Below, piece after piece: positions 4,467-12,557 of a stretch of 64,000 nucleotides of DNA. Position numbers and translations under genes: made by a program. The DNA is from an uncultured Candidatus Saccharibacteria bacterium (GTDB lineage Bacteria > Patescibacteriota > Saccharimonadia > Saccharimonadales > Saccharimonadaceae). How positions within the stretch are numbered: the stretch's first letter is position 1; every line of letters starts with the position of its first letter. The stretch is taken from positions 41,719 to 105,718 of the forward strand of contig CAUSVT010000004.1 in assembly GCA_963535375.1 (NCBI GenBank), read 5' to 3'. Below the pieces are notes generated by a model. That model was given only the letters and a program-made list of their open reading frames with translations, did not search any database and was not told where the DNA came from.

Positions 4467-5174
4467 TTACACTTCCTCTAACATCGCACCCGTTCGCCTC
4501 ACCAGCTCCATCGTTCGACGGTAATTCTGCCGAGTCGGACCAATCACGCCGATGTAACTGCGATCACTAAACGATGAACGAAACTTACTGATGATCAGGG
4601 TCGCGCCGCTGGCTTTACCGATTGGGTTCTCACTACCAATGAACACGTTGAGCGGTTCATTGGGCGCAGCTTCAACTAGCCAGGGCTCAATATTGTCAAT
4701 CAGTCTGGCGATAGCCTGAACGTGATTGCCTTCAATAAACTCTGGCTGAGAAAATAGCTGCGTCATACCATTCATGTACAGATGATCACCAAACGAGGCA
4801 AAACCAAAATTACCCGTCAGCTCAACCAGGCTGTCAACCGCGCTGCGGATGGCCCTGTCAGATTTATCAACGTGCGAATTAACATGTGCCTCGATCGCCC
4901 TCGCACTGCGATCGATACCACTTGGTAGTTCAGTCATTTGAGCGGCAGTGATACCATTGACATAAAACCGATAGCCTTTGTCAGTCGGGATACGGCCGGC
5001 ACTGGTGTGTGGTGCCTCAATAAATCCCATCTCCTCGAGCTTGGCCATTTCGCTGCGGATGGTAGCGCTGGACACACCAAATAATTTGGCGAGTGTCACA
5101 CTGCCAACTGGTGCGGCAATTTCAGCGTACTGTTCAATGATAGTGGCCAAGATGGCCTGCTGGCGTTCGGTCAT
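4467..5174 (-). CDS. hrcA: Heat-inducible repressor HrcA, compact 235-aa form
   Basis: [16 protein letters not shown]...[37 protein letters not shown] is the HrcA winged helix. I placed the start at the ATG at 5172-5174 because the GTG at 5201 lies inside the CIRCE/-10 region. Confidence 0.85.
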
Positions 5175-7377: not shown

Positions 7378-8607
7378 TTAGCTGTTCCTACGTTTGATGA
7401 TCCAAAGGATACCTGCACCAATACCGACAGCTGCGAGTGAAGCGAGCGGCCAAACATTGTCACCAGTGTCAGCTAAGTAGCCTTCGCCAGTTGGCTTTGT
7501 TGGCTGAGCAACTGGTGCGCCAGGATTGGTTGGCTGAGCAGGAGTTGGCGTCGGGGTTGGTGTTGGTGGAGTTGGTGGGGTCGGTGGAGTGACTGGCGCT
7601 TCCTTAACGGTCGCAGTACTGATGAAGCCATTGTTCATAGCCGCCGCAATGCGAGCACCGTCGCTAGACATCGCAATAGAAGACCAAGCACCAGTTGCGG
7701 CTGTAGTCTGCTCTTCCCAGGTAGCACCTGAATCGCTTGAGACATATATCACACCGCCAGTGACAGTGGCAGCCAATTTAGTGCCATCAGCAGAGCTGGT
7801 GATGGCAGTCCAAGCACGGTTGCCAGAACCAGCTTGTTCTTGCCAGGTCACACCCGAGTCGCTTGAGGTGTATACTGCACCGCCATTGACAGTCGCGGCG
7901 AGCTTAGTACCATCGCTTGACCCAGTGATGGCAGTCCAAGCACGGTTGCCAGAACCAGCTTGTTCTTGCCAGGTCACACCCGAGTCGCTTGAGGTGTATA
8001 CTGCACCGCCATTGACAGTCGCGGCGAGCTTAGTACCATCGCTTGACCCAGTGATGGCAGTCCAAGCACGGTTGCCAGAACCAGCCTGCGGTGTCCACGT
8101 TGCGCCTGAGTTACTGGAAGTAAATACTGCGCCGTTTTTAGCTGTTGCAGCCAGTTTAGTACCGTCAGCAGAGCTGGCAATCGAAGTCCAATCAAAAGAA
8201 CCGCCGGATATACCATTGCTTCTCCAAGTCTGGCCTCTGTCGTCTGAGGTTAAAATGTAACCACCCCAGTGATACACACCAGCAAGTTTAGTACCGTCAG
8301 CAGAGCTGGTGATTGCAATCCAAGCACGAGAACCAGAATCAACTTGCTCTGTCCAGGTTTTACCTGCATCATCTGAGATGTAAGCTGAGCCGCCAGTCAT
8401 AGTCGCAACGAGCTTGGTACCGTCAGCAGAGCTGGCAATTGAGGTCCAAGCGCGACTACCAGAACCAGTCTGTTCTGTCCAGGTAACTACCTGTTTTGCG
8501 TTAGCTGACTGACTAAACACCGCAACCACCGCAGCGATTACTACCAAGCATCCCGCTTTAGCAGCGCGGGCTATCGTTCTTTTTCTATTACCCCAGAGCG
8601 ACCCCAT
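7378..8607 (-). CDS. Cell-wall-anchored BNR/Asp-box beta-propeller surface protein (8 blades, PT linker, LAxTG signal)
   Basis: It has a signal peptide and repeats of SSDSGVTWQEQAGSGNRAWTAITGSSDGTKLAATVNGGAVYT. A PPTPPTPPTPTPTPTP linker follows. The C-terminus has GYLADTG, a hydrophobic segment and KRRNS. A strong SD AAAAAGGAG precedes the ATG. Confidence 0.82.
   Translation of the reverse strand: MGSLWGNRKRTIARAAKAGCLVVIAAVVAVFSQSANAKQVVTWTEQTGSGSRAWTSIASSADGTKLVATMTGGSAYISDDAGKTWTEQVDSGSRAWIAITSSADGTKLAGVYHWGGYILTSDDRGQTWRSNGISGGSFDWTSIASSADGTKLAATAKNGAVFTSSNSGATWTPQAGSGNRAWTAITGSSDGTKLAATVNGGAVYTSSDSGVTWQEQAGSGNRAWTAITGSSDGTKLAATVNGGAVYTSSDSGVTWQEQAGSGNRAWTAITSSADGTKLAATVTGGVIYVSSDSGATWEEQTTAATGAWSSIAMSSDGARIAAAMNNGFISTATVKEAPVTPPTPPTPPTPTPTPTPAQPTNPGAPVAQPTKPTGEGYLADTGDNVWPLASLAAVGIGAGILWIIKRRNS
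7801..8085. repeat. Perfect 126-bp in-frame tandem repeat (2.26 units, one propeller blade per unit)
   Basis: Positions 7801-7926 are identical to 7927-8052. Positions 8053-8085 repeat the first 33 nt. Confidence 0.95.
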
Positions 8608-8716: not shown

Positions 8717-9178
8717 TTATAATAGTTCACGCAAAATGGCTTGCCAATCAGGAAATTCATCTGAGCCAAACCGGATCAATCGCCCTGAAAAGTCGCCCGC
8801 ACCGTTTGCTGTCCGATCATCGATCAAGATATCACCCTGGCTTAGATGCTTGACCGACGAAAAAACAACCTTGCGAAAGAAAATATTTTCCCGGCCGTCA
8901 CCACCAAAATACTTCTTTACCCACGCCAATTTATCAGCCAACGCCGTCGGATTTTCCCATGGTGATGACGACAGAATATATAGATCATATTTTTCTTTCA
9001 AAGTATCAACTGCCTCAAGAGCCCCCGGCATCGGATCCATCAACGCAAAAACACCCGGAATATTGTCATACTCACCCGCAAACTTCTCGAGCATCTCAGG
9101 CGAAACCCTCGTCAAAGCCGACGTAAAGTCGACCAGTACGCCATCCATGTCGATGTAAATAATCGGTTTCTTCATCAT
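8717..9178 (-). CDS. 5'(3')-deoxyribonucleotidase (HAD superfamily, NT5C-like)
   Basis: MKKPIIYIDMDGVLVDF carries the HAD motif I (DxDGV). The size of 153 aa fits. Its start overlaps the lepA C-fragment stop. Confidence 0.72.
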   Translation of the reverse strand: MMKKPIIYIDMDGVLVDFTSALTRVSPEMLEKFAGEYDNIPGVFALMDPMPGALEAVDTLKEKYDLYILSSSPWENPTALADKLAWVKKYFGGDGRENIFFRKVVFSSVKHLSQGDILIDDRTANGAGDFSGRLIRFGSDEFPDWQAILRELL

Positions 9179-10140
9179 TAATCCCTCTTTAGCATCACTG
9201 TAAACGCTTCTGACGGAATGTCAACCTTGCCGAAGCGTTTCATACGCTTTTTACCGCGGGCCTGTTTGGCGAGGAGCTTCTTTTTACGACTAACATCGCC
9301 GCCGTACAGATAGCCGGTAACATCCTTGCGGTAGGCACCGATATTTTCTCGGGCGATAAACCTGCCGCCAATCGCCGCCTGCAACGCCACTTCAAAGCTC
9401 TGGCGCGGCACCACCTCTTTGAGCTTTTTGACGATTTCGCGGCCCAAGCCTGGCGCCTCCGAGCGGTGGCACATCACACTGAGAGCATCGACCATTTCGC
9501 CTGCTACATAGAAATCAACGCGTACCAAATCTTCCGGCTGATAGCCCGCTAGCTCATAATTAAACGAGCCATACCCGCTAGTCACCGACTTCAATTGATC
9601 ATAAAAATCCGTCAGCAAATTGGCCAGCGGCGCCGTAAACGAAATCAGTGCCCGCTCGTCGATGTAGCTGAGGTTTTTCTGCCGACCACGCTTGGCAACA
9701 ATCAGCTGAATCACCGCACCAATATAATCTTGTGGCACTACAATTTCACCGTCAATCCACGGCTCGCGAACCTCGGTAATTTGTGCTGGGTCAGGTAGTT
9801 CGCTGGCCGACTTAATATCCAACTCCTCGCCATTGGTGAGGCTGACTTGATAATCAGTACTCGGATTGGTGACGATGAGATCCAAATTATACTCGCGCTC
9901 CAGCCGCTCACGAATGATATCCATATGGAGCAAACCAAGAAAGCCGATCCGCACACCATAGCCCAGCACCGGCGAATTTTCCGGCTCAAACTGCAGCGCC
10001 GAATCACTGAGACTCAACTTCTCAATCGCCTCCTTCAGGTCATTATAATCTTCGTTAGACACCGGGAAGAAGCCCGCATAGACGAAGGGCTTGACTTCTT
10101 TGTAGCCAGGGAGGGGCTGGACAGTCATTTTTACAGTCAT
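9178..10140 (-). CDS. lepA: Elongation factor 4 (LepA), C-terminal fragment (domains III, V and the LepA-specific CTD)
   Basis: QPLPGYKEVKPFVYAGFFPVS...LSLSDSALQFEPENSPVLGYGVRIGFLGLLHMDIIRERLEREYNLDL is collinear with E. coli and B. subtilis LepA from the domain II/III linker onward. The fragment begins MTVKMTV. Confidence 0.9.
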   Translation of the reverse strand: MTVKMTVQPLPGYKEVKPFVYAGFFPVSNEDYNDLKEAIEKLSLSDSALQFEPENSPVLGYGVRIGFLGLLHMDIIRERLEREYNLDLIVTNPSTDYQVSLTNGEELDIKSASELPDPAQITEVREPWIDGEIVVPQDYIGAVIQLIVAKRGRQKNLSYIDERALISFTAPLANLLTDFYDQLKSVTSGYGSFNYELAGYQPEDLVRVDFYVAGEMVDALSVMCHRSEAPGLGREIVKKLKEVVPRQSFEVALQAAIGGRFIARENIGAYRKDVTGYLYGGDVSRKKKLLAKQARGKKRMKRFGKVDIPSEAFTVMLKRD

Positions 10141-10148
10141 TTCGTTAT

Positions 10149-10157
10149 ATTATAGCA
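10149..10157 (-). promoter_or_regulatory. Extended -10 box (TGCTATAAT) 8 nt upstream of the lepA C-fragment ATG
   Basis: The minus strand reads aaaTGCTATAATataacgaaATG. Confidence 0.65.
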
Positions 10158-10200
10158 TTTTACAGAGATACCGTCGAATCACCGTGTTAGTTTATATTCC

Positions 10201-10752
10201 TCACGGAGTATACGACGTGTGCATATCAACTCGCCTCGAAGGTGAGGCTAATGGATACATATAGGGCAGTTCTCTGTTTGGCACAATATCATAATATCGA
10301 CGATACCGGTCGTCATTAAATTCAGACTCATTACCCTTAACGAAATGTAGCGCTGGATGGTTCCTCGAAGTAGTACCACGCTTCACCAATAATCCAACAT
10401 GCGACCACGTTTCCGACGTGACGTCTGGCTCCAGCCCGTACTTAGCAAGCAACAAGGCAATGATAGGTTTGCGGATGACCGAGGTAGTTCCTGGTTCAAG
10501 ACCAAGCGCAGGAGTTACCTCCTCAAAGAAATATTCCAACATGGACGTGCCAGCCCGATATTCAGACGGAGCATCACGAAACAGCATGCCAGCGAAGCAC
10601 GCCTTTTTGCCAAGCCTCGCATAACTAAGCCGCGCCATGGGCTTATCCGCATTTTCCCCAAACATAATTCTTTCTACTCCAGACGGCGCAGTTCGCGCAT
10701 GAGCTGGAACGCGGTCTCCATTGGCAAACGTAATTGGCGGTAACTCATTCAT
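10201..10752 (-). CDS. Hypothetical protein (183 aa), second gene of the insert splitting lepA
   Basis: Long ORF on the same strand as lepA. TATTAT lies 8 nt upstream of its ATG. I recognised no motif. Confidence 0.6.
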   Translation of the reverse strand: MNELPPITFANGDRVPAHARTAPSGVERIMFGENADKPMARLSYARLGKKACFAGMLFRDAPSEYRAGTSMLEYFFEEVTPALGLEPGTTSVIRKPIIALLLAKYGLEPDVTSETWSHVGLLVKRGTTSRNHPALHFVKGNESEFNDDRYRRYYDIVPNRELPYMYPLASPSRRVDMHTSYTP

Positions 10753-10905
10753 AGCTAATCATAATATTTCTTACTGTCACCGTATCGCTCGTCCCTTTGA
10801 GGACAGCGATAGTGCCGTCAAGCAACGACTCGACAGCTATCTGTGACAGATTATCAGATTATACTATACCATCTTAAGTTAATTATGTCTATGAAATAAA
10901 CGATT

Positions 10906-11595
10906 CTACTGATTAGCATACCGCTCGATACGCTTAGCCCGCAGTGTTAGCATGTCAGTCAAGTCCTGCAGATATACTGTGTACTGCTCAACGGTCTGAG
11001 GCAACGGTGACGATTGGAAATTATCAAAATCTGTTAGTATGTTAACTTGGTATTCGTCATCAACAAAATCTTGCAACAAGAAAAAATCGACATAGCCCCG
11101 AAAATCACCAAACCACTCAAAAAAGTCACCATAACGATCAAAAACATCAGCCAGCGGACTGTCTTCACCCCGATACCAGCGGGCAATACATTCTAACGTT
11201 AGGTCAAATCGATCACCAATTTTGCGATGCCAGCCTCTCGCACGATTGATGGTTTGCGTACCGCCGCGTAATTCGCTGGGGAAGACAATCTCTGAACCGA
11301 TCGTCCAACCAACATCCTCTATTATCGTCAAAACATCTTGCGACATCTTCTCAACAAGTAATTTATTACGCTTCCAAGGTCTAAAAGTAGCCGCCATATT
11401 ATCGCTCGAAACAGGAATCTGACACCGACCGTCACTGGCTATTAAGTAGGCTCCCTGATCCAGCATAGTCAGTTGACAGCCATCAGGTAGCGGTTTAGTC
11501 CATAGCTCAGCGTGATAGCGTTTTAACGTCAGGCTGTGCTGATCTGGATCTCTACCATGAGCATCTTGACGACAATCAAACCAAGGATCAATCAT
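10906..11595 (-). CDS. Hypothetical protein (229 aa), first gene of the insert; resembles a widespread uncharacterised family (possibly DUF6994, from memory)
   Basis: The ATG lies 2 nt after the lepA N-fragment stop. The motifs RDPDQHSLTLKRYHAELWTKPLPDG, INRARGWHRKIGDRFDLTLECIARWYRG and FGDFRGYVDFFLLQDFV look like a conserved family I cannot name with certainty. Confidence 0.65.
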   Translation of the reverse strand: MIDPWFDCRQDAHGRDPDQHSLTLKRYHAELWTKPLPDGCQLTMLDQGAYLIASDGRCQIPVSSDNMAATFRPWKRNKLLVEKMSQDVLTIIEDVGWTIGSEIVFPSELRGGTQTINRARGWHRKIGDRFDLTLECIARWYRGEDSPLADVFDRYGDFFEWFGDFRGYVDFFLLQDFVDDEYQVNILTDFDNFQSSPLPQTVEQYTVYLQDLTDMLTLRAKRIERYANQ

Positions 11596-11597
11596 CG

Positions 11598-12557
11598 CTA
11601 GCCTATATACTTCTTCAACGTCACCGTATCACCCACCCGCGCTTCACGCGTGGTTTTGAGGTTGGTGACAATGTAACCAATTTCACCAGTGTCCAGCGAT
11701 GGGTCGGGGATCATGCTAGGACTAAGATGACCAACTTCCAGCGCCAAGCCGTTCGCACCAGTTGCCATCATGTGAATCGCTTCGCCTTTTTTGATCTGGC
11801 CGTCAACCACCCTGACATACAAAATCACCCCGCGATAATCATCATAATAACTATCGAAAATCAGCGCCCGCGTCGGAAGATCAGCCAACACAACATCAGG
11901 ATGCTCGACCGCCAGTGGCGAAGTCGGCGCCGGAATTCGCTCAACAATCGCCTCCAAAACTTGATTAACATTCTGTCCAGTTTTAGCGGAAATATGAATA
12001 ATCTCACTCTCATCGCATCCCAGCAAATTTATCACCTGCTTGGACACCCGCGGCACATCGGCGGCTGGCAAATCGACTTTATTGAGCACCGGAATAATTG
12101 TCAAATCTTGCTCCATCGCCAAGTACACATTCGCTAACGTCTGCGCCTGAATACCCTGACTGGCGTCAACCACCAACACCGCCCCCTCACAAGCCTGCAA
12201 CGAGCGACTAACTTCGTAACTAAAATCAACGTGGCCAGGCGTGTCGATGAGATTGAGATCGTACGGTCCAGCTGGCGGCAATCCTTCCGGTGAATCGATA
12301 GCCCTGTCGCTGGCGCTGCCTGCGACATTCGATTCAGAGGTGGCGGTTGCCGCTGGCTGGCGGTAATGGTACTTCATCCGCACCGGCGCCAGCTTAATGG
12401 TAATTCCTTTCTCACGCTCCAAATCCATGCTATCCAACAGCTGCGACTTCATCTCGCGCTTCTCCACTGTCCCCGTCATCTCCATCATCCGATCAGCCAG
12501 CGTCGACTTGCCGTGATCGATGTGAGCGATGATGCAAAAATTGCGGATAGCTTCCAT
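11598..12557 (-). CDS. lepA: Elongation factor 4 (LepA), N-terminal fragment (GTPase domain and domain II)
   Basis: The motifs [12 protein letters not shown] (G1), DTPGH (G3) and NKVD (G4) are present. The ORF ends ...[16 protein letters not shown]-stop. Its start overlaps the murJ stop (ATGA). Confidence 0.92.

What the first reader, a model, noticed from the sequence alone, without database searches (positions are those of the whole stretch)
10141..11597. Uncharacterised two-gene cassette occupying the lepA split site
Two same-strand ORFs fill the gap in lepA: 229 aa at 10906..11595 and 183 aa at 10201..10752. The first starts 2 nt after the lepA-N stop. It has blocks that look strongly conserved: RDPDxxSLTLKRYHAELWTKPLPDG, INRARGWHRKIGDRFDLTLECIARWYRG and FGDFRGYVDFFLLQDFV. 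I associate these, from memory only, with a widespread family of unknown function, possibly DUF6994. The second ORF has no motif I recognise. Each ORF has a -10-like hexamer 8 nt upstream of its ATG (TATATA and TATTAT). I saw no integrase, transposase or homing-endonuclease motif (LAGLIDADG, GIY-YIG, HNH). The mobilisation mechanism and the function are therefore both open. Candidate functions include an accessory or defence-type module, a toxin/antitoxin pair, or a factor connected to EF4.
Basis: partly seen in the sequence, partly recalled or inferred. Interest (0 to 1): 0.7.

Follow-up and report, generated by a model that had tools for sequence, protein, structure and literature searches.

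The report
Variable gene island inside split lepA
In a group of human-oral Saccharibacteria the translation factor gene lepA was cut in two long ago by a nuclease-like gene of unknown function (DUF6994), and the gap has become a swap site for accessory genes, so the two ORFs here are independent lodgers rather than a functional pair.

Summary
lepA (minus strand) is split into lepA-N (11598..12557) and lepA-C (9178..10140). The gap holds a 229-aa ORF that is a full-length Pfam DUF6994 (E 2.5e-74) and a 183-aa ORF with no database family.

The "two-gene cassette" reading fails. All 18 related Saccharibacteria species carry DUF6994 in the same lepA linker site, but the rest of the gap varies: nothing, ORF-B, or up to about 6 kb of other cargo (T5orf172/PDC-S57, MazG-like, NUDIX, nitroreductase, large unknowns). 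ORF-B relatives occur elsewhere without DUF6994. DUF6994 occurs in at least 587 species genomes with no conserved partner.

Both lepA halves (dN/dS 0.06 and 0.02) and both inserts (0.15 and 0.11) are under purifying selection. Every split allele has a TGnTATAAT promoter-like box in front of lepA-C. No intein or intron is present. The inserts have moved between lineages independently of their flanks. ORF-B carries a decayed copy of the lepA-N/DUF6994 junction upstream.

DUF6994 is only tentatively a degenerate HNH-like nuclease. ORF-B belongs to a tiny family with weak GNAT-like signals. Best reading: a fixed "gene in pieces" that has become an accessory or defence-type hotspot. I rate it a new variant of a known kind.

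The parts
11598..12557 (-). lepA-N, the N-terminal half of EF4 (319 aa: G domain plus domain II). It ends ...[10 protein letters not shown].
   Evidence: Pfam GTP_EFTU 2.3e-54 and GTP_EFTU_D2 2.3e-09. It aligns to residues 1 to about 287 of unsplit Saccharibacteria EF4. dN/dS is 0.056.
11596..11609 (-). Left junction of the insert: TATATAGGCTAG-CG. It holds the last lepA-N codons, the stop and a 2-nt gap before the DUF6994 ATG. It is conserved in all alleles where DUF6994 follows lepA-N.
   Evidence: The empty site in L020 reads ...AAAAAATAT|GAACCGGCGCCA|CTTCCCGGCTAC, and the filled site reads ...AAGAAGTAT|ATAGGCTAGCGATG...
10906..11595 (-). DUF6994 gene (229 aa), the constant resident of the lepA gap.
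   Evidence: PF22507 E 2.5e-74, full length. AF2 pLDDT 92.7. Weak best fold matches to BrxU/GmrSD (E 0.33) and phage HNH endonucleases (E 0.84-1.6). dN/dS 0.149. GC3 0.42 against 0.60 in lepA.
10863..10891 (-). Promoter-like site TAGACA-17-TATAGT with TG, in the spacer after DUF6994. The TAAGATGGTATAGTATAA stretch of that spacer resembles the lepA-C promoter stretch TAAAATGCTATAATATAA.
   Evidence: 10 of 12 matches, TG present. (15 of 18 identical; 45 of 1000 shuffles reach the score, so this is marginal).
10745..10800 (-). Decayed duplicate of the lepA-N 3' end and junction, lying directly upstream of and running into the ORF-B start (GATACGGTGAC..AAGAA.TAT.TA.G.TAGC.ATG). It is a scar showing that ORF-B once sat directly after lepA-N.
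   Evidence: Exact 11-mer repeat at 10776-10786 and 11620-11630 (D5). Local alignment score 33 against a shuffle maximum of 28, 0 of 1000 shuffles. The scar is present in all ORF-B-bearing alleles checked.
10201..10752 (-). ORF-B (183 aa), a variable cargo gene from a tiny divergent family with weak GNAT-like signals.
   Evidence: No family hit. 8 clusters at 90% identity among 5.8 billion proteins. 62 relatives among 1.84 billion representatives. 12 of 38 relatives give weak GNAT Pfam hits. dN/dS 0.113. AF2 model is poor, pLDDT 49.
10141..10200 (-). Spacer holding the promoter-like site TCGACG-17-TATAAT with an extended -10 (TGCTATAAT). The -10 ends 8 nt before the lepA-C ATG.
   Evidence: TGnTATAAT is conserved upstream of all 21 full-length lepA-C copies found in the 23 split loci scanned, although the spacers fall into several different sequence types. 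It is absent from the unsplit L020 and from the promoterless lepA-C head pseudo-copies.
9178..10140 (-). lepA-C, the C-terminal half of EF4 (320 aa: domains III, V and the LepA C-terminal domain). It starts MTVKMTVQ|PLPGYKEVKP.
   Evidence: Pfam LepA_C 9.5e-43 and EFG_C 5.1e-21. Alignment. dN/dS 0.022.

Best explanation
The two ORFs are not one functional module. They are two independently acquired accessory genes stacked in a hypervariable island that lies inside lepA in one clade of human-oral Saccharibacteria.

Step 1 (shown). In the ancestor of the clade, a solitary DUF6994 gene was inserted into the variable linker between EF4 domains II and III. The insert brought a stop codon for lepA-N and a start codon plus an extended -10 promoter for lepA-C. 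EF4 has since been made as two polypeptides, both under strong purifying selection. There is no intein and no intron.

Step 2 (shown). The split is fixed in the clade, and the gap now varies between species. It may hold DUF6994 alone, DUF6994 plus ORF-B, or 4-6 kb of other cargo.

Step 3 (inferred from scars and mosaic divergence). Cargo is exchanged by recombination, with the two lepA halves serving as homology arms. These bacteria are generally thought to be naturally competent (my own knowledge, not tested here). Alternative alleles are occasionally stacked by illegitimate joins, which leave lepA-N-tail and lepA-C-head fragments. ORF-B arrived this way from an allele in which it directly followed lepA-N.

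Step 4 (inferred, weakest). DUF6994 encodes a DNA-acting enzyme with a degenerate HNH-like core. It is either a domesticated or still selfish endonuclease, or a single-gene defence nuclease. It is expressed by translational coupling to lepA-N. ORF-B is a divergent GNAT-like protein with an altered acetyl-CoA motif, and its role is accessory.
For: Site and split:
- The unsplit lepA of a sister lineage gives the empty site. The insertion lies exactly in the TLKKY[EPA]PLPGY linker, with no loss of conserved residues.
- All 18 species-level Saccharibacteria genomes with a close DUF6994 carry it inside split lepA.
- No unsplit lepA above 82% identity appears among the 120 best-scoring hits of a search of 5.8 billion proteins, whereas split halves are 92-99% identical within the clade.

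Function retained:
- dN/dS is 0.056 for lepA-N, 0.022 for lepA-C, 0.149 for DUF6994 and 0.113 for ORF-B.
- TGnTATAAT is conserved upstream of lepA-C in all 21 full-length copies despite several unrelated spacer types (scan).

Variable content:
- At least 12 cargo families occupy the gap. They include T5orf172/MUG113 (PADLOC candidate PDC-S57, 1e-58), MazG/dUTPase_2, NUDIX, nitroreductase and unknown proteins of 600-850 aa.

Not a pair:
- ORF-B relatives P0128 and P0127 sit between rplA and eno, and between an M23 peptidase gene and def, without DUF6994.
- 54 diverse DUF6994 loci share no conserved neighbour and hold no ORF-B relative.

Exchange:
- For the pair L004-L025, dS is 0.03 for DUF6994 against 0.74 and 0.64 for the lepA halves. 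For L031-L033, dS is 0.14 for ORF-B against 0.5-0.78 for its neighbours.
- The L004-L025 near-identity tract spans the gap, with edges at the lepA ends.
- Scars are present: a lepA-N tail and junction copy upstream of ORF-B (0 of 1000 shuffles), and lepA-C head fragments (aa 5-46) inside the cargo of L027, L034 and L035.

Foreign composition:
- GC3 is 0.42 for DUF6994 and 0.47 for ORF-B, against 0.57-0.60 for flanking genes.

Nuclease-like reading:
- The Pfam curators predict an HNH-like fold (PMC11701544).
- The top fold matches in both libraries are GmrSD/BrxU and phage HNH endonucleases.
- Neighbours elsewhere include T5orf172 three times, integrases, resolvases, HNH, type IV restriction enzymes, PD-Lambda-1, MkoA and PD-T4-6.
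Against: - The nuclease assignment is weak. Foldseek E-values are 0.33 and 0.84 with TM-scores of 0.2 or less. There are no PDB sequence hits. hhalign to a GmrSD C-terminus matches only the terminal helix, at probability 1%. According to the Pfam paper the catalytic His is replaced by Ala.
- PADLOC, PHROGs and NCBIfam have nothing for either protein.
- Many DUF6994 neighbourhoods are plain housekeeping, so a defence association is modest.
- Mosaic recombination may be genome-wide in these bacteria, so the exchange signal need not be specific to this site. murJ is also mosaic.
- The promoter and translational-coupling claims rest on sequence only.
- The GNAT link for ORF-B rests on weak hits in distant relatives. 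ORF-B's own motif A is degenerate and its model is poor.
Confidence: 0.62

Rival explanations
1. DUF6994 is an active free-standing homing endonuclease of a new family. It cuts intact lepA, or rival alleles, at the linker site. Repair then copies the nuclease gene and adjacent cargo into the break. This process created the split and still drives cassette turnover.
For: - The insertion lies in a highly conserved gene at one precise site and preserves host function, as with mobE in nrdA (PMC3045599).
- The gene is solitary, with a very patchy distribution across Bacteria and Archaea.
- An HNH-like fold is predicted, and the top fold hits are HNH or GmrSD proteins.
- The insert is nearly identical between lineages whose flanks have diverged.
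- A second nuclease-type gene (T5orf172, GIY-YIG-like) sits at the same junction in other alleles and next to DUF6994 in three other loci from two further bacterial lineages, Pelagibacteraceae and Dehalococcoidaceae. This echoes 'nuclease genes occupy boundaries of exchange' (PMC10448857).
Against: - No empty site exists within the clade, because the best unsplit lepA is 82% identical. There is nothing left to home into.
- Long-term purifying selection, with dN/dS 0.15 and 35 invariant residues across phyla, is unlike typical fast-decaying homing endonuclease genes.
- Outside this clade DUF6994 is intergenic and splits no gene.
- It is almost absent from phages and plasmids: 1 of 50,697 phage records, 1 viral contig and 4 of 72,556 plasmids.
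- The catalytic His is missing.
Confidence: 0.2
2. DUF6994 and ORF-B form a two-component system, either a toxin-antitoxin pair or a two-gene defence system, and were acquired as a unit.
For: - The two genes are adjacent, on the same strand, and both conserved. They are found together in the window and 8-10 related species.
- In one pair, DUF6994 and ORF-B moved together (L004-L025).
- GNAT-fold toxins exist in known TA systems (my own knowledge, not tested here).
Against: - DUF6994 occurs alone in the gap in L002, L022 and L026, and with other cargo in about 8 species.
- The two genes have discordant histories: in WIN-L025, dS is 0.28 for DUF6994 against 0.08 for ORF-B.
- ORF-B has its own junction scar and an upstream promoter-like site.
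- ORF-B relatives and DUF6994 relatives never co-occur elsewhere.
- PADLOC gives no hit.
Confidence: 0.05
3. The inserted proteins serve EF4, for example as an assembly factor or regulator of the split factor, or as a ribosome-associated partner.
For: - DUF6994 is translationally coupled to lepA-N (2-nt gap) and has been retained wherever lepA is split, with two decayed exceptions.
- In phage Aeh1, insert-derived sequences are needed to assemble split NrdA (PMC3045599).
Against: - DUF6994 is found in at least 587 species genomes with unsplit lepA elsewhere and with no linkage to translation genes.
- It is frameshifted in L038 and truncated in L028, while both lepA halves stay intact.
- In L001-type alleles it is separated from lepA-N by 5.7 kb.
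- ORF-B is dispensable.
Confidence: 0.04
4. lepA is a decaying pseudogene in reduced genomes, and the gap ORFs are incidental.
For: Saccharibacteria have reduced genomes, and lepA is non-essential in many bacteria (my own knowledge, not tested here).
Against: - dN/dS is 0.056 and 0.022 for the two halves at dS of 0.5-0.7. All conserved domains are intact. A promoter-like box for lepA-C is conserved.
- The gap ORFs are also under purifying selection.
Confidence: 0.02

Closest known systems
Genes in pieces made by a free-standing endonuclease gene: nrdA of Aeromonas phage Aeh1, split by mobE (Crona et al. 2011, PMC3045599; review PMC2988022)
   Same: A conserved gene is cut into two separately translated ORFs by an inserted gene of a (here putative) HNH-type nuclease. 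There is no intron or intein. Short new tails sit at the break (..KKYIG* and MTVKMTVQ..). Both halves are retained as functional.
   Different: - The host is a bacterial chromosome, not a phage.
- The target is a translation GTPase, not a DNA-metabolism enzyme.
- The inserted gene is a DUF with no shown nuclease activity and lacks the catalytic His.
- The split is fixed across at least 18 species.
- The gap has grown into a multi-gene variable island, which is not described for mobE/nrdA.
[quoted passage not shown] 2009, PMC2677866)
   Same: The layout is the same: N-half, then a free-standing gene bringing its own control elements, then the C-half.
   Different: No split-intein halves are present. 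lepA-N ends 2 residues after the native sequence, and lepA-C begins 5-8 residues before PLPGY. The protein therefore cannot be religated by trans-splicing.
Core-gene-flanked defence or accessory hotspots (e.g. Pseudomonas aeruginosa core defence hotspots, PMC10250203; E. coli defence islands, PMC10121019)
   Same: Conserved flanks surround highly variable cargo. Cargo includes nuclease-like and nucleotide-hydrolase genes (PDC-S57/T5orf172, MazG-like, NUDIX), with GmrSD next door. Turnover occurs by recombination.
   Different: - The two 'flanking core genes' are the two halves of one gene.
- No integrase or tRNA is involved.
- Most cargo has no known defence annotation, and PADLOC recognises only the T5orf172 candidate.
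GmrSD/BrxU type IV restriction enzymes, DUF1524 His-Me finger domain
   Same: This is the best, though non-significant, structural match for DUF6994 (7p9k_A). The Pfam curators draw the same comparison. A C-terminal helix motif is faintly similar to that of the GmrSD next to lepA-C in L002.
   Different: There is no DUF262 N-terminal domain, no HNH or DUF1524 HMM hit, and the catalytic His is replaced. The similarity is below any significance threshold.
GNAT N-acetyltransferases (for ORF-B)
   Same: Distant relatives of ORF-B carry an R-G-x-G-x-G motif at the position of GNAT motif A and give weak Acetyltransf_1, _7 and _CG hits.
   Different: ORF-B itself reads S-E-Y-R-A-G at that position and hits no GNAT model. 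The family has a distinctive conserved C-terminal half (GT..I.KP.IAL ... HT.Y) that was not matched to anything.

Membership tests
Pfam DUF6994 (PF22507) | Full-length match to the family HMM above the gathering score | tested here: met
   E 2.5e-74, 250.2 bits against a cut-off of 27, profile positions 1-226 of 226.
HNH / His-Me finger nuclease superfamily | Beta-beta-alpha-metal fold recognisable by structure comparison | tested here: inconclusive
   The AF2 model is confident (pLDDT 92.7). The best matches are BrxU at E 0.33, probability 0.20, TM 0.21 and phage HNH endonucleases at E 0.84-1.6. No HNH Pfam hit appears at E up to 1. The fold claim rests on PMC11701544.
HNH / His-Me finger nuclease superfamily | Catalytic histidine at the end of the first beta-strand | not tested
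   PMC11701544 states that it is replaced by alanine and that two invariant Asp residues may substitute. My alignment shows invariant D65, D128, D131 and E135, but I could not map them onto a catalytic geometry.
Free-standing homing endonuclease gene | Site-specific DNA cleavage of the insert-less allele | not testable with these tools
   This needs a biochemical assay on the L020-type linker sequence.
Free-standing homing endonuclease gene | Filled and empty target sites coexist among close relatives | tested here: not met
   The best unsplit lepA is 82% identical, and all 18 clade species are filled.
Free-standing homing endonuclease gene | The insert spreads horizontally, independently of the flanking host gene | tested here: met
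   For L004-L025, DUF6994 dS is 0.03 against 0.74 and 0.64 for the flanks, and the identity tract is bounded at the lepA ends. General recombination could give the same pattern.
Fractured gene with split intein | N- and C-intein halves at the broken ends | tested here: not met
   The ends carry only 2 and 5-8 extra residues compared with unsplit EF4.
Group I / group II intron with ORF | Intron RNA structure flanking the ORF | tested here: not met
   No Rfam intron hit appears at the gathering threshold or at E up to 1 on 10000-11750. lepA-C has its own promoter-like box and start codon.
Toxin-antitoxin or two-gene defence system (DUF6994 plus ORF-B) | The two genes co-occur across lineages | tested here: not met
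   Searches show co-occurrence only inside this one locus type, with discordant divergence.
Known anti-phage defence systems (PADLOC v2) | HMM match to a system component | tested here: not met
   There are no hits for either protein at E up to 1. Only the sister-allele cargo gene T5orf172 matches PDC-S57.
Core-flanked variable hotspot / accessory island | Conserved flanks with different gene content between related genomes | tested here: met
   At least 6 architectures and at least 12 cargo families occur between identical lepA break points in 18 species.
GNAT acetyltransferase (ORF-B) | Match to a GNAT HMM and motif A Q/R-x-x-G-x-G/A | tested here: not met
   ORF-B has no hit and its motif reads SEYRAG. 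Of its distant relatives, 12 of 38 give hits, which are weak for Acetyltransf_CG (best 0.0036) and reach 1.7e-05 for Acetyltransf_1. The family profile against PDB gives GNAT hits at E 0.05-0.2. This supports relatedness to the fold and does not establish membership.

The most novel reading that the evidence does not exclude
DUF6994 is a new family of site-specific DNA endonucleases with an Asp-based variant of the HNH active site. In oral Saccharibacteria it founded, and still polices, a cassette-exchange locus inside an essential-type translation gene. EF4 works there as a two-piece protein, and the nuclease biases inheritance of whatever accessory or defence cargo is linked to it. This would be a chromosomal, cellular counterpart of phage intron-less homing that doubles as a defence-gene shuttle.
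Probability: 0.2. Interest if true: 0.8.

Novelty: new variant of a known kind. Interest (0 to 1): 0.62.

Why it matters
First, this locus gives a widespread domain of unknown function (present in at least 587 species genomes across Bacteria and Archaea) a concrete, testable context. It comes with a defined candidate target sequence, a natural empty site in L020, and natural knock-outs in L038 and L028.

Second, it shows that a conserved translation GTPase can be kept for a long time as two polypeptides in a cellular genome. Until now this kind of split was documented mainly for phage DNA-metabolism genes.

Third, it identifies a compact hypervariable locus in host-associated, genome-reduced Saccharibacteria. 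New defence or host-interaction genes can be mined there, including large unknown proteins of 600-850 aa, a kinase-like protein of 838 aa, and the ORF-B family. The locus could also serve as a strain-typing marker in oral metagenomes.

Tried and rejected
- PADLOC, NCBIfam and PHROGs gave nothing for either protein.
- PDB sequence searches with the DUF6994 profile and the 6-sequence ORF-B profile gave no hits at E up to 10.
- Foldseek of the DUF6994 model against PDB and BFVD found nothing at E 0.001 or better.
- The ORF-B AF2 model was too poor (pLDDT 49) to search with.
- hhalign of the DUF6994 profile against the GmrSD C-terminus of L002 matched only the terminal helix, at probability 1%.
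- I looked for a conserved partner of DUF6994 in 54 diverse loci. None exists, and the largest neighbour cluster has 3 members (T5orf172).
- I looked for other genes split by DUF6994. The tightly coupled neighbours in six loci are unrelated proteins: a UvrD helicase, a methyltransferase, a LysR regulator, a photolyase-type FAD-binding protein and unknowns.
- N- and C-terminal extensions of longer DUF6994 proteins have no Pfam domain.
- I tested and rejected the intron and intein readings.
- I rejected phage or plasmid carriage as the usual vehicle.
- The 145-aa 'alternative' ORF in L004-type contigs is the full 183-aa ORF-B with a later start chosen by the gene caller. It is not a truncation.
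- Literature searches for DUF6994/PF22507 and for Saccharibacteria plus lepA found only the Pfam 2024 paper and nothing on a split lepA.
Full report
**1. Observation**

On the minus strand, lepA is present as two ORFs. lepA-N (11598..12557, 319 aa) carries GTP_EFTU and GTP_EFTU_D2. lepA-C (9178..10140, 320 aa) carries EFG_C, LepA_C and a weak EFG_III match.

The first ORF starts 2 nt after the lepA-N stop (..TAT ATA GGC TAG CG ATG..). The second ORF has no hit in Pfam, NCBIfam, PADLOC or PHROGs.

**2. The split is old, precise, and has no intein or intron**

A search with the two halves joined found hundreds of unsplit Saccharibacteria EF4 proteins of 590-650 aa, but none above 82% identity. 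Aligning them shows that the break lies in the variable linker between domains II and III. Unsplit P0129 reads ..[21 protein letters not shown]... The split form reads ..[10 protein letters not shown] and MTVKMTVQPLPGYKEVKP...

At the DNA level, the empty site in L020 is ..AAAAAATAT|GAACCGGCGCCA|CTTCCCGGCTAC... The filled site is ..AAGAAGTAT|ATAGGCTAGCG-ATG(DUF6994)...TGnTATAAT..ATG + 5-8 codons|CCCCTCCCTGGCTAC. There is no room for intein halves. Rfam finds no intron in the gap at either threshold.

**3. DUF6994 is the constant resident, and everything else in the gap varies**

Contigs carrying close DUF6994 homologues, together with 18 species-representative Saccharibacteria genomes, all place DUF6994 inside split lepA. 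The record titles of two of the 18 mark them as human-oral MAGs. The architectures differ:

- lepN|DUF|lepC in L002, L022 and L026, with only a 59-nt spacer.
- lepN|DUF|ORF-B|lepC in the window and 8 species.
- lepN|DUF|MazG-like|ORF-B, or lepN|DUF|MazG-like|NUDIX, in L030 and L032.
- lepN|DUF|ORF-B|757 aa|229 aa|lepC in L006.
- lepN followed by 5-6 kb of cargo, then DUF|lepC, in L001, L027 and L034-L037.
- lepN|frameshifted DUF|4 kb including a kinase-like protein of 838 aa|lepC in L038.

Cargo annotations are T5orf172/MUG113 (PADLOC candidate PDC-S57, 1e-58), MazG/dUTPase_2, NUDIX, nitroreductase and several unknowns. The 145-aa ORF called in L004-type contigs is the intact 183-aa ORF-B with a later start.

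**4. The two ORFs are not a pair**

The ORF-B family is tiny: 8 clusters among 5.8 billion proteins and 62 relatives among 1.84 billion representatives. Its relatives at 45-47% identity lie between rplA and eno, and between an M23 peptidase gene and def. Neither location has DUF6994.

DUF6994, in contrast, occurs in at least 587 species genomes across Bacteria and Archaea at about 42-47% identity. In 54 such loci no neighbour is conserved, and none of the fetched loci outside this clade holds an ORF-B relative. The most recurrent neighbour is T5orf172/PDC-S57, found in 3 loci from Pelagibacteraceae and Dehalococcoidaceae. Others include integrases, resolvases, HNH, PD-(D/E)XK, type IV restriction enzymes, PD-Lambda-1, MkoA, PD-T4-6 and a ScoMcrA-like protein, but also plain housekeeping genes. 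DUF6994 is almost absent from phages and plasmids. Outside this clade it does not split genes.

**5. Everything is functional**

Pairwise Nei-Gojobori dN/dS is 0.056 for lepA-N, 0.022 for lepA-C, 0.149 for DUF6994 and 0.113 for ORF-B. Two natural losses of DUF6994 exist, a frameshift in L038 and a truncation in L028, and both leave the lepA halves intact.

An extended -10 box (TGnTATAAT) precedes lepA-C in all 21 full-length copies found in the 23 split loci scanned, although the spacers belong to several unrelated sequence types. It is missing from the unsplit gene and from the promoterless lepA-C head pseudo-copies. In the window this box is part of TCGACG-17-TATAAT at 10177..10149, and it ends 8 nt before the ATG. 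I infer that lepA-C is transcribed on its own, possibly with little or no leader, and that DUF6994 is co-transcribed with and translationally coupled to lepA-N.

**6. How cargo gets there**

The 45 nt upstream of and into ORF-B (about 10745-10786) are a decayed copy of the lepA-N tail plus the DUF6994 junction. The two ATGs are in register: GATACGGTGAC-GTTGAAGAAGTATATAGGCTAGCGATGATTGA against GATACGGTGACAGT-AAGAAATATTATGATTAGCTATGAATGA. The alignment scores 33 against a shuffle maximum of 28, with 0 of 1000 shuffles reaching it. The exact 11-mer repeat is confirmed.

The spacer after DUF6994 also resembles the lepA-C promoter stretch, though only marginally (45 of 1000 shuffles). L027, L034 and L035 carry lepA-C head fragments (aa 5-46) inside their cargo.

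Synonymous divergence is strongly discordant between adjacent genes. For L004-L025, dS is 0.03 for DUF6994 and 0.15 for ORF-B, against 0.74 for lepA-N and 0.64 for lepA-C. For L031-L033, dS is 0.14 for ORF-B against 0.5-0.78 for its neighbours. For WIN-L025, dS is 0.03 for lepA-N, 0.28 for DUF6994 and 0.08 for ORF-B. The L004-L025 near-identity tract covers the gap and ends at the lepA edges. The inserts have lower GC3 (0.42 and 0.47) than the flanking genes (0.57-0.60).

I conclude, by inference, that alternative split-lepA alleles are exchanged by recombination using the lepA halves as homology arms. Occasionally they are stacked by illegitimate joins, which leave scars. ORF-B came from an allele in which it directly followed lepA-N.

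**7. What the proteins are**

DUF6994. The AF2 model is confident (pLDDT 92.7), yet it has no significant structural neighbour. The best matches are BrxU/GmrSD in PDB (E 0.33) and phage HNH endonucleases in BFVD (E 0.84-1.6). Pfam's curators independently describe a minimal beta-beta-alpha HNH-like core, with the catalytic His replaced by Ala and two invariant Asp residues (PMC11701544). My alignment shows 35 invariant positions, including D65, N117, R120, D128, R129, D131, E135 and R139. A nucleic-acid enzyme is therefore plausible but unproven.

ORF-B. The AF2 model is poor (pLDDT 49). Distant relatives carry R-G-x-G-x-G where GNAT motif A lies, and 12 of 38 give weak GNAT Pfam hits. The family profile gives weak GNAT PDB hits at that motif. 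ORF-B itself reads SEYRAG at that position, so it is at most a divergent relative of the GNAT fold.

**8. Comparison with known systems**

The closest precedent is the phage Aeh1 nrdA gene, split by the free-standing HNH endonuclease gene mobE and reassembled without splicing (PMC3045599). A second precedent is the 'fractured genes' with split inteins (PMC2677866). This locus differs from both in several ways:

- The host is a cellular chromosome and the target is a translation GTPase.
- There is no intein.
- The resident gene is a DUF without proven nuclease activity.
- The split is fixed across at least 18 species, with no empty site in the clade.
- The gap has become a multi-gene variable island, resembling core-gene-flanked defence hotspots (PMC10250203), except that the two flanks are halves of one gene.

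I found no paper describing a split lepA in Saccharibacteria or a function for DUF6994.

**9. Verdict**

The thing is real and interesting, but it is a resident gene plus one of many cargo genes in a hotspot inside a gene in pieces. It is not a two-gene cassette, a toxin-antitoxin pair or an EF4 factor. I rate the novelty as a new variant of a known kind, and the interest at about 0.6.

Noticed in passing
window 12260-12370 (lepA-N residues ~66-97): lepA-N carries a low-complexity insertion of about 30 residues ([33 protein letters not shown]) in the G domain. Its length varies between strains (lepA-N is 276, 286, 305 or 319 aa), and it is absent from most unsplit EF4 proteins. One unsplit relative (P0132) has an unrelated insertion at the same spot.
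   Followed up: partly
L002/L022 10388-10711: A second copy of the lepA 3' end (aa 214-320, 93% identity) lies about 3.7 kb downstream of lepA-C. It brackets a GmrSD-type gene, NT5C and a hydrolase. This looks like a second insertion or duplication event at the 3' end of lepA.
   Followed up: no
L027, L034, L035 ~4732-4858: Promoterless pseudo-copies of the lepA-C head (aa 5-46, 80-83% identity) sit inside the gap cargo, just upstream of a nitroreductase gene that precedes DUF6994.
   Followed up: partly
L041, L048, L067; also L001/L036 323-931: T5orf172/MUG113 (GIY-YIG-type, PADLOC PDC-S57) genes lie next to DUF6994 in Pelagibacteraceae (twice) and Dehalococcoidaceae. In two of these loci the genes are convergent, 0-10 nt apart. 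A T5orf172 gene also sits at the lepA-N junction in some Saccharibacteria alleles. This is a recurrent association of two solitary nuclease-like genes.
   Followed up: partly
L001 ~300-325 versus window 11596-11606: The T5orf172 gene in L001 starts 2 nt after an AGGCTAG motif (GGAGGCTAGAAGTG), just as DUF6994 does (ATAGGCTAGCGATG). Three unrelated genes (DUF6994, ORF-B, T5orf172) therefore begin in register with the same junction motif. This could reflect shared ancestry of the junction, or merely a Shine-Dalgarno-like AGG with standard spacing.
   Followed up: no
L008-L011 (~4138-5264 in L009): The 47%-identical ORF-B relative P0128, together with a 167-aa unknown and eno, sits between rplA and rplK. 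It interrupts the usually contiguous rplKA cluster in another Saccharibacteria-like lineage.
   Followed up: no
L038 6001-6683; L028 6001-6630: These are natural DUF6994 loss-of-function alleles: a frameshift in L038 and a truncation to 209 aa in L028. lepA-C is intact in both and lepA-N is a full-length ORF in both. They are useful natural controls.
   Followed up: partly
window 7378-8607 (-): This 409-aa protein has tandem, near-identical BNR/sortilin-like repeats (..AWTAITGSSDGTKLAATVNGGAVYTSSDSGVTWQEQAGSGNR.. repeated), a Pro/Thr-rich stalk and a C-terminal membrane anchor. Repeat number and length vary between related strains: 281-413 aa, and the repeats cross-match.
   Followed up: no
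L001 3811-5826, L006 1909-4182, L034 1795-4344: A family of large cargo proteins (579-849 aa, cluster c9) has no Pfam or PADLOC hit. It recurs in the lepA gap at different positions relative to DUF6994 and is often preceded by an unknown of about 490 aa with a weak HTH-like hit.
   Followed up: partly
L017 9446-15864 (Hyphomonas): In Hyphomonas atlantica, DUF6994 lies about 750 nt upstream of a ScoMcrA-type SRA protein and an unknown protein of 1621 aa. This looks like a defence-island context.
   Followed up: no
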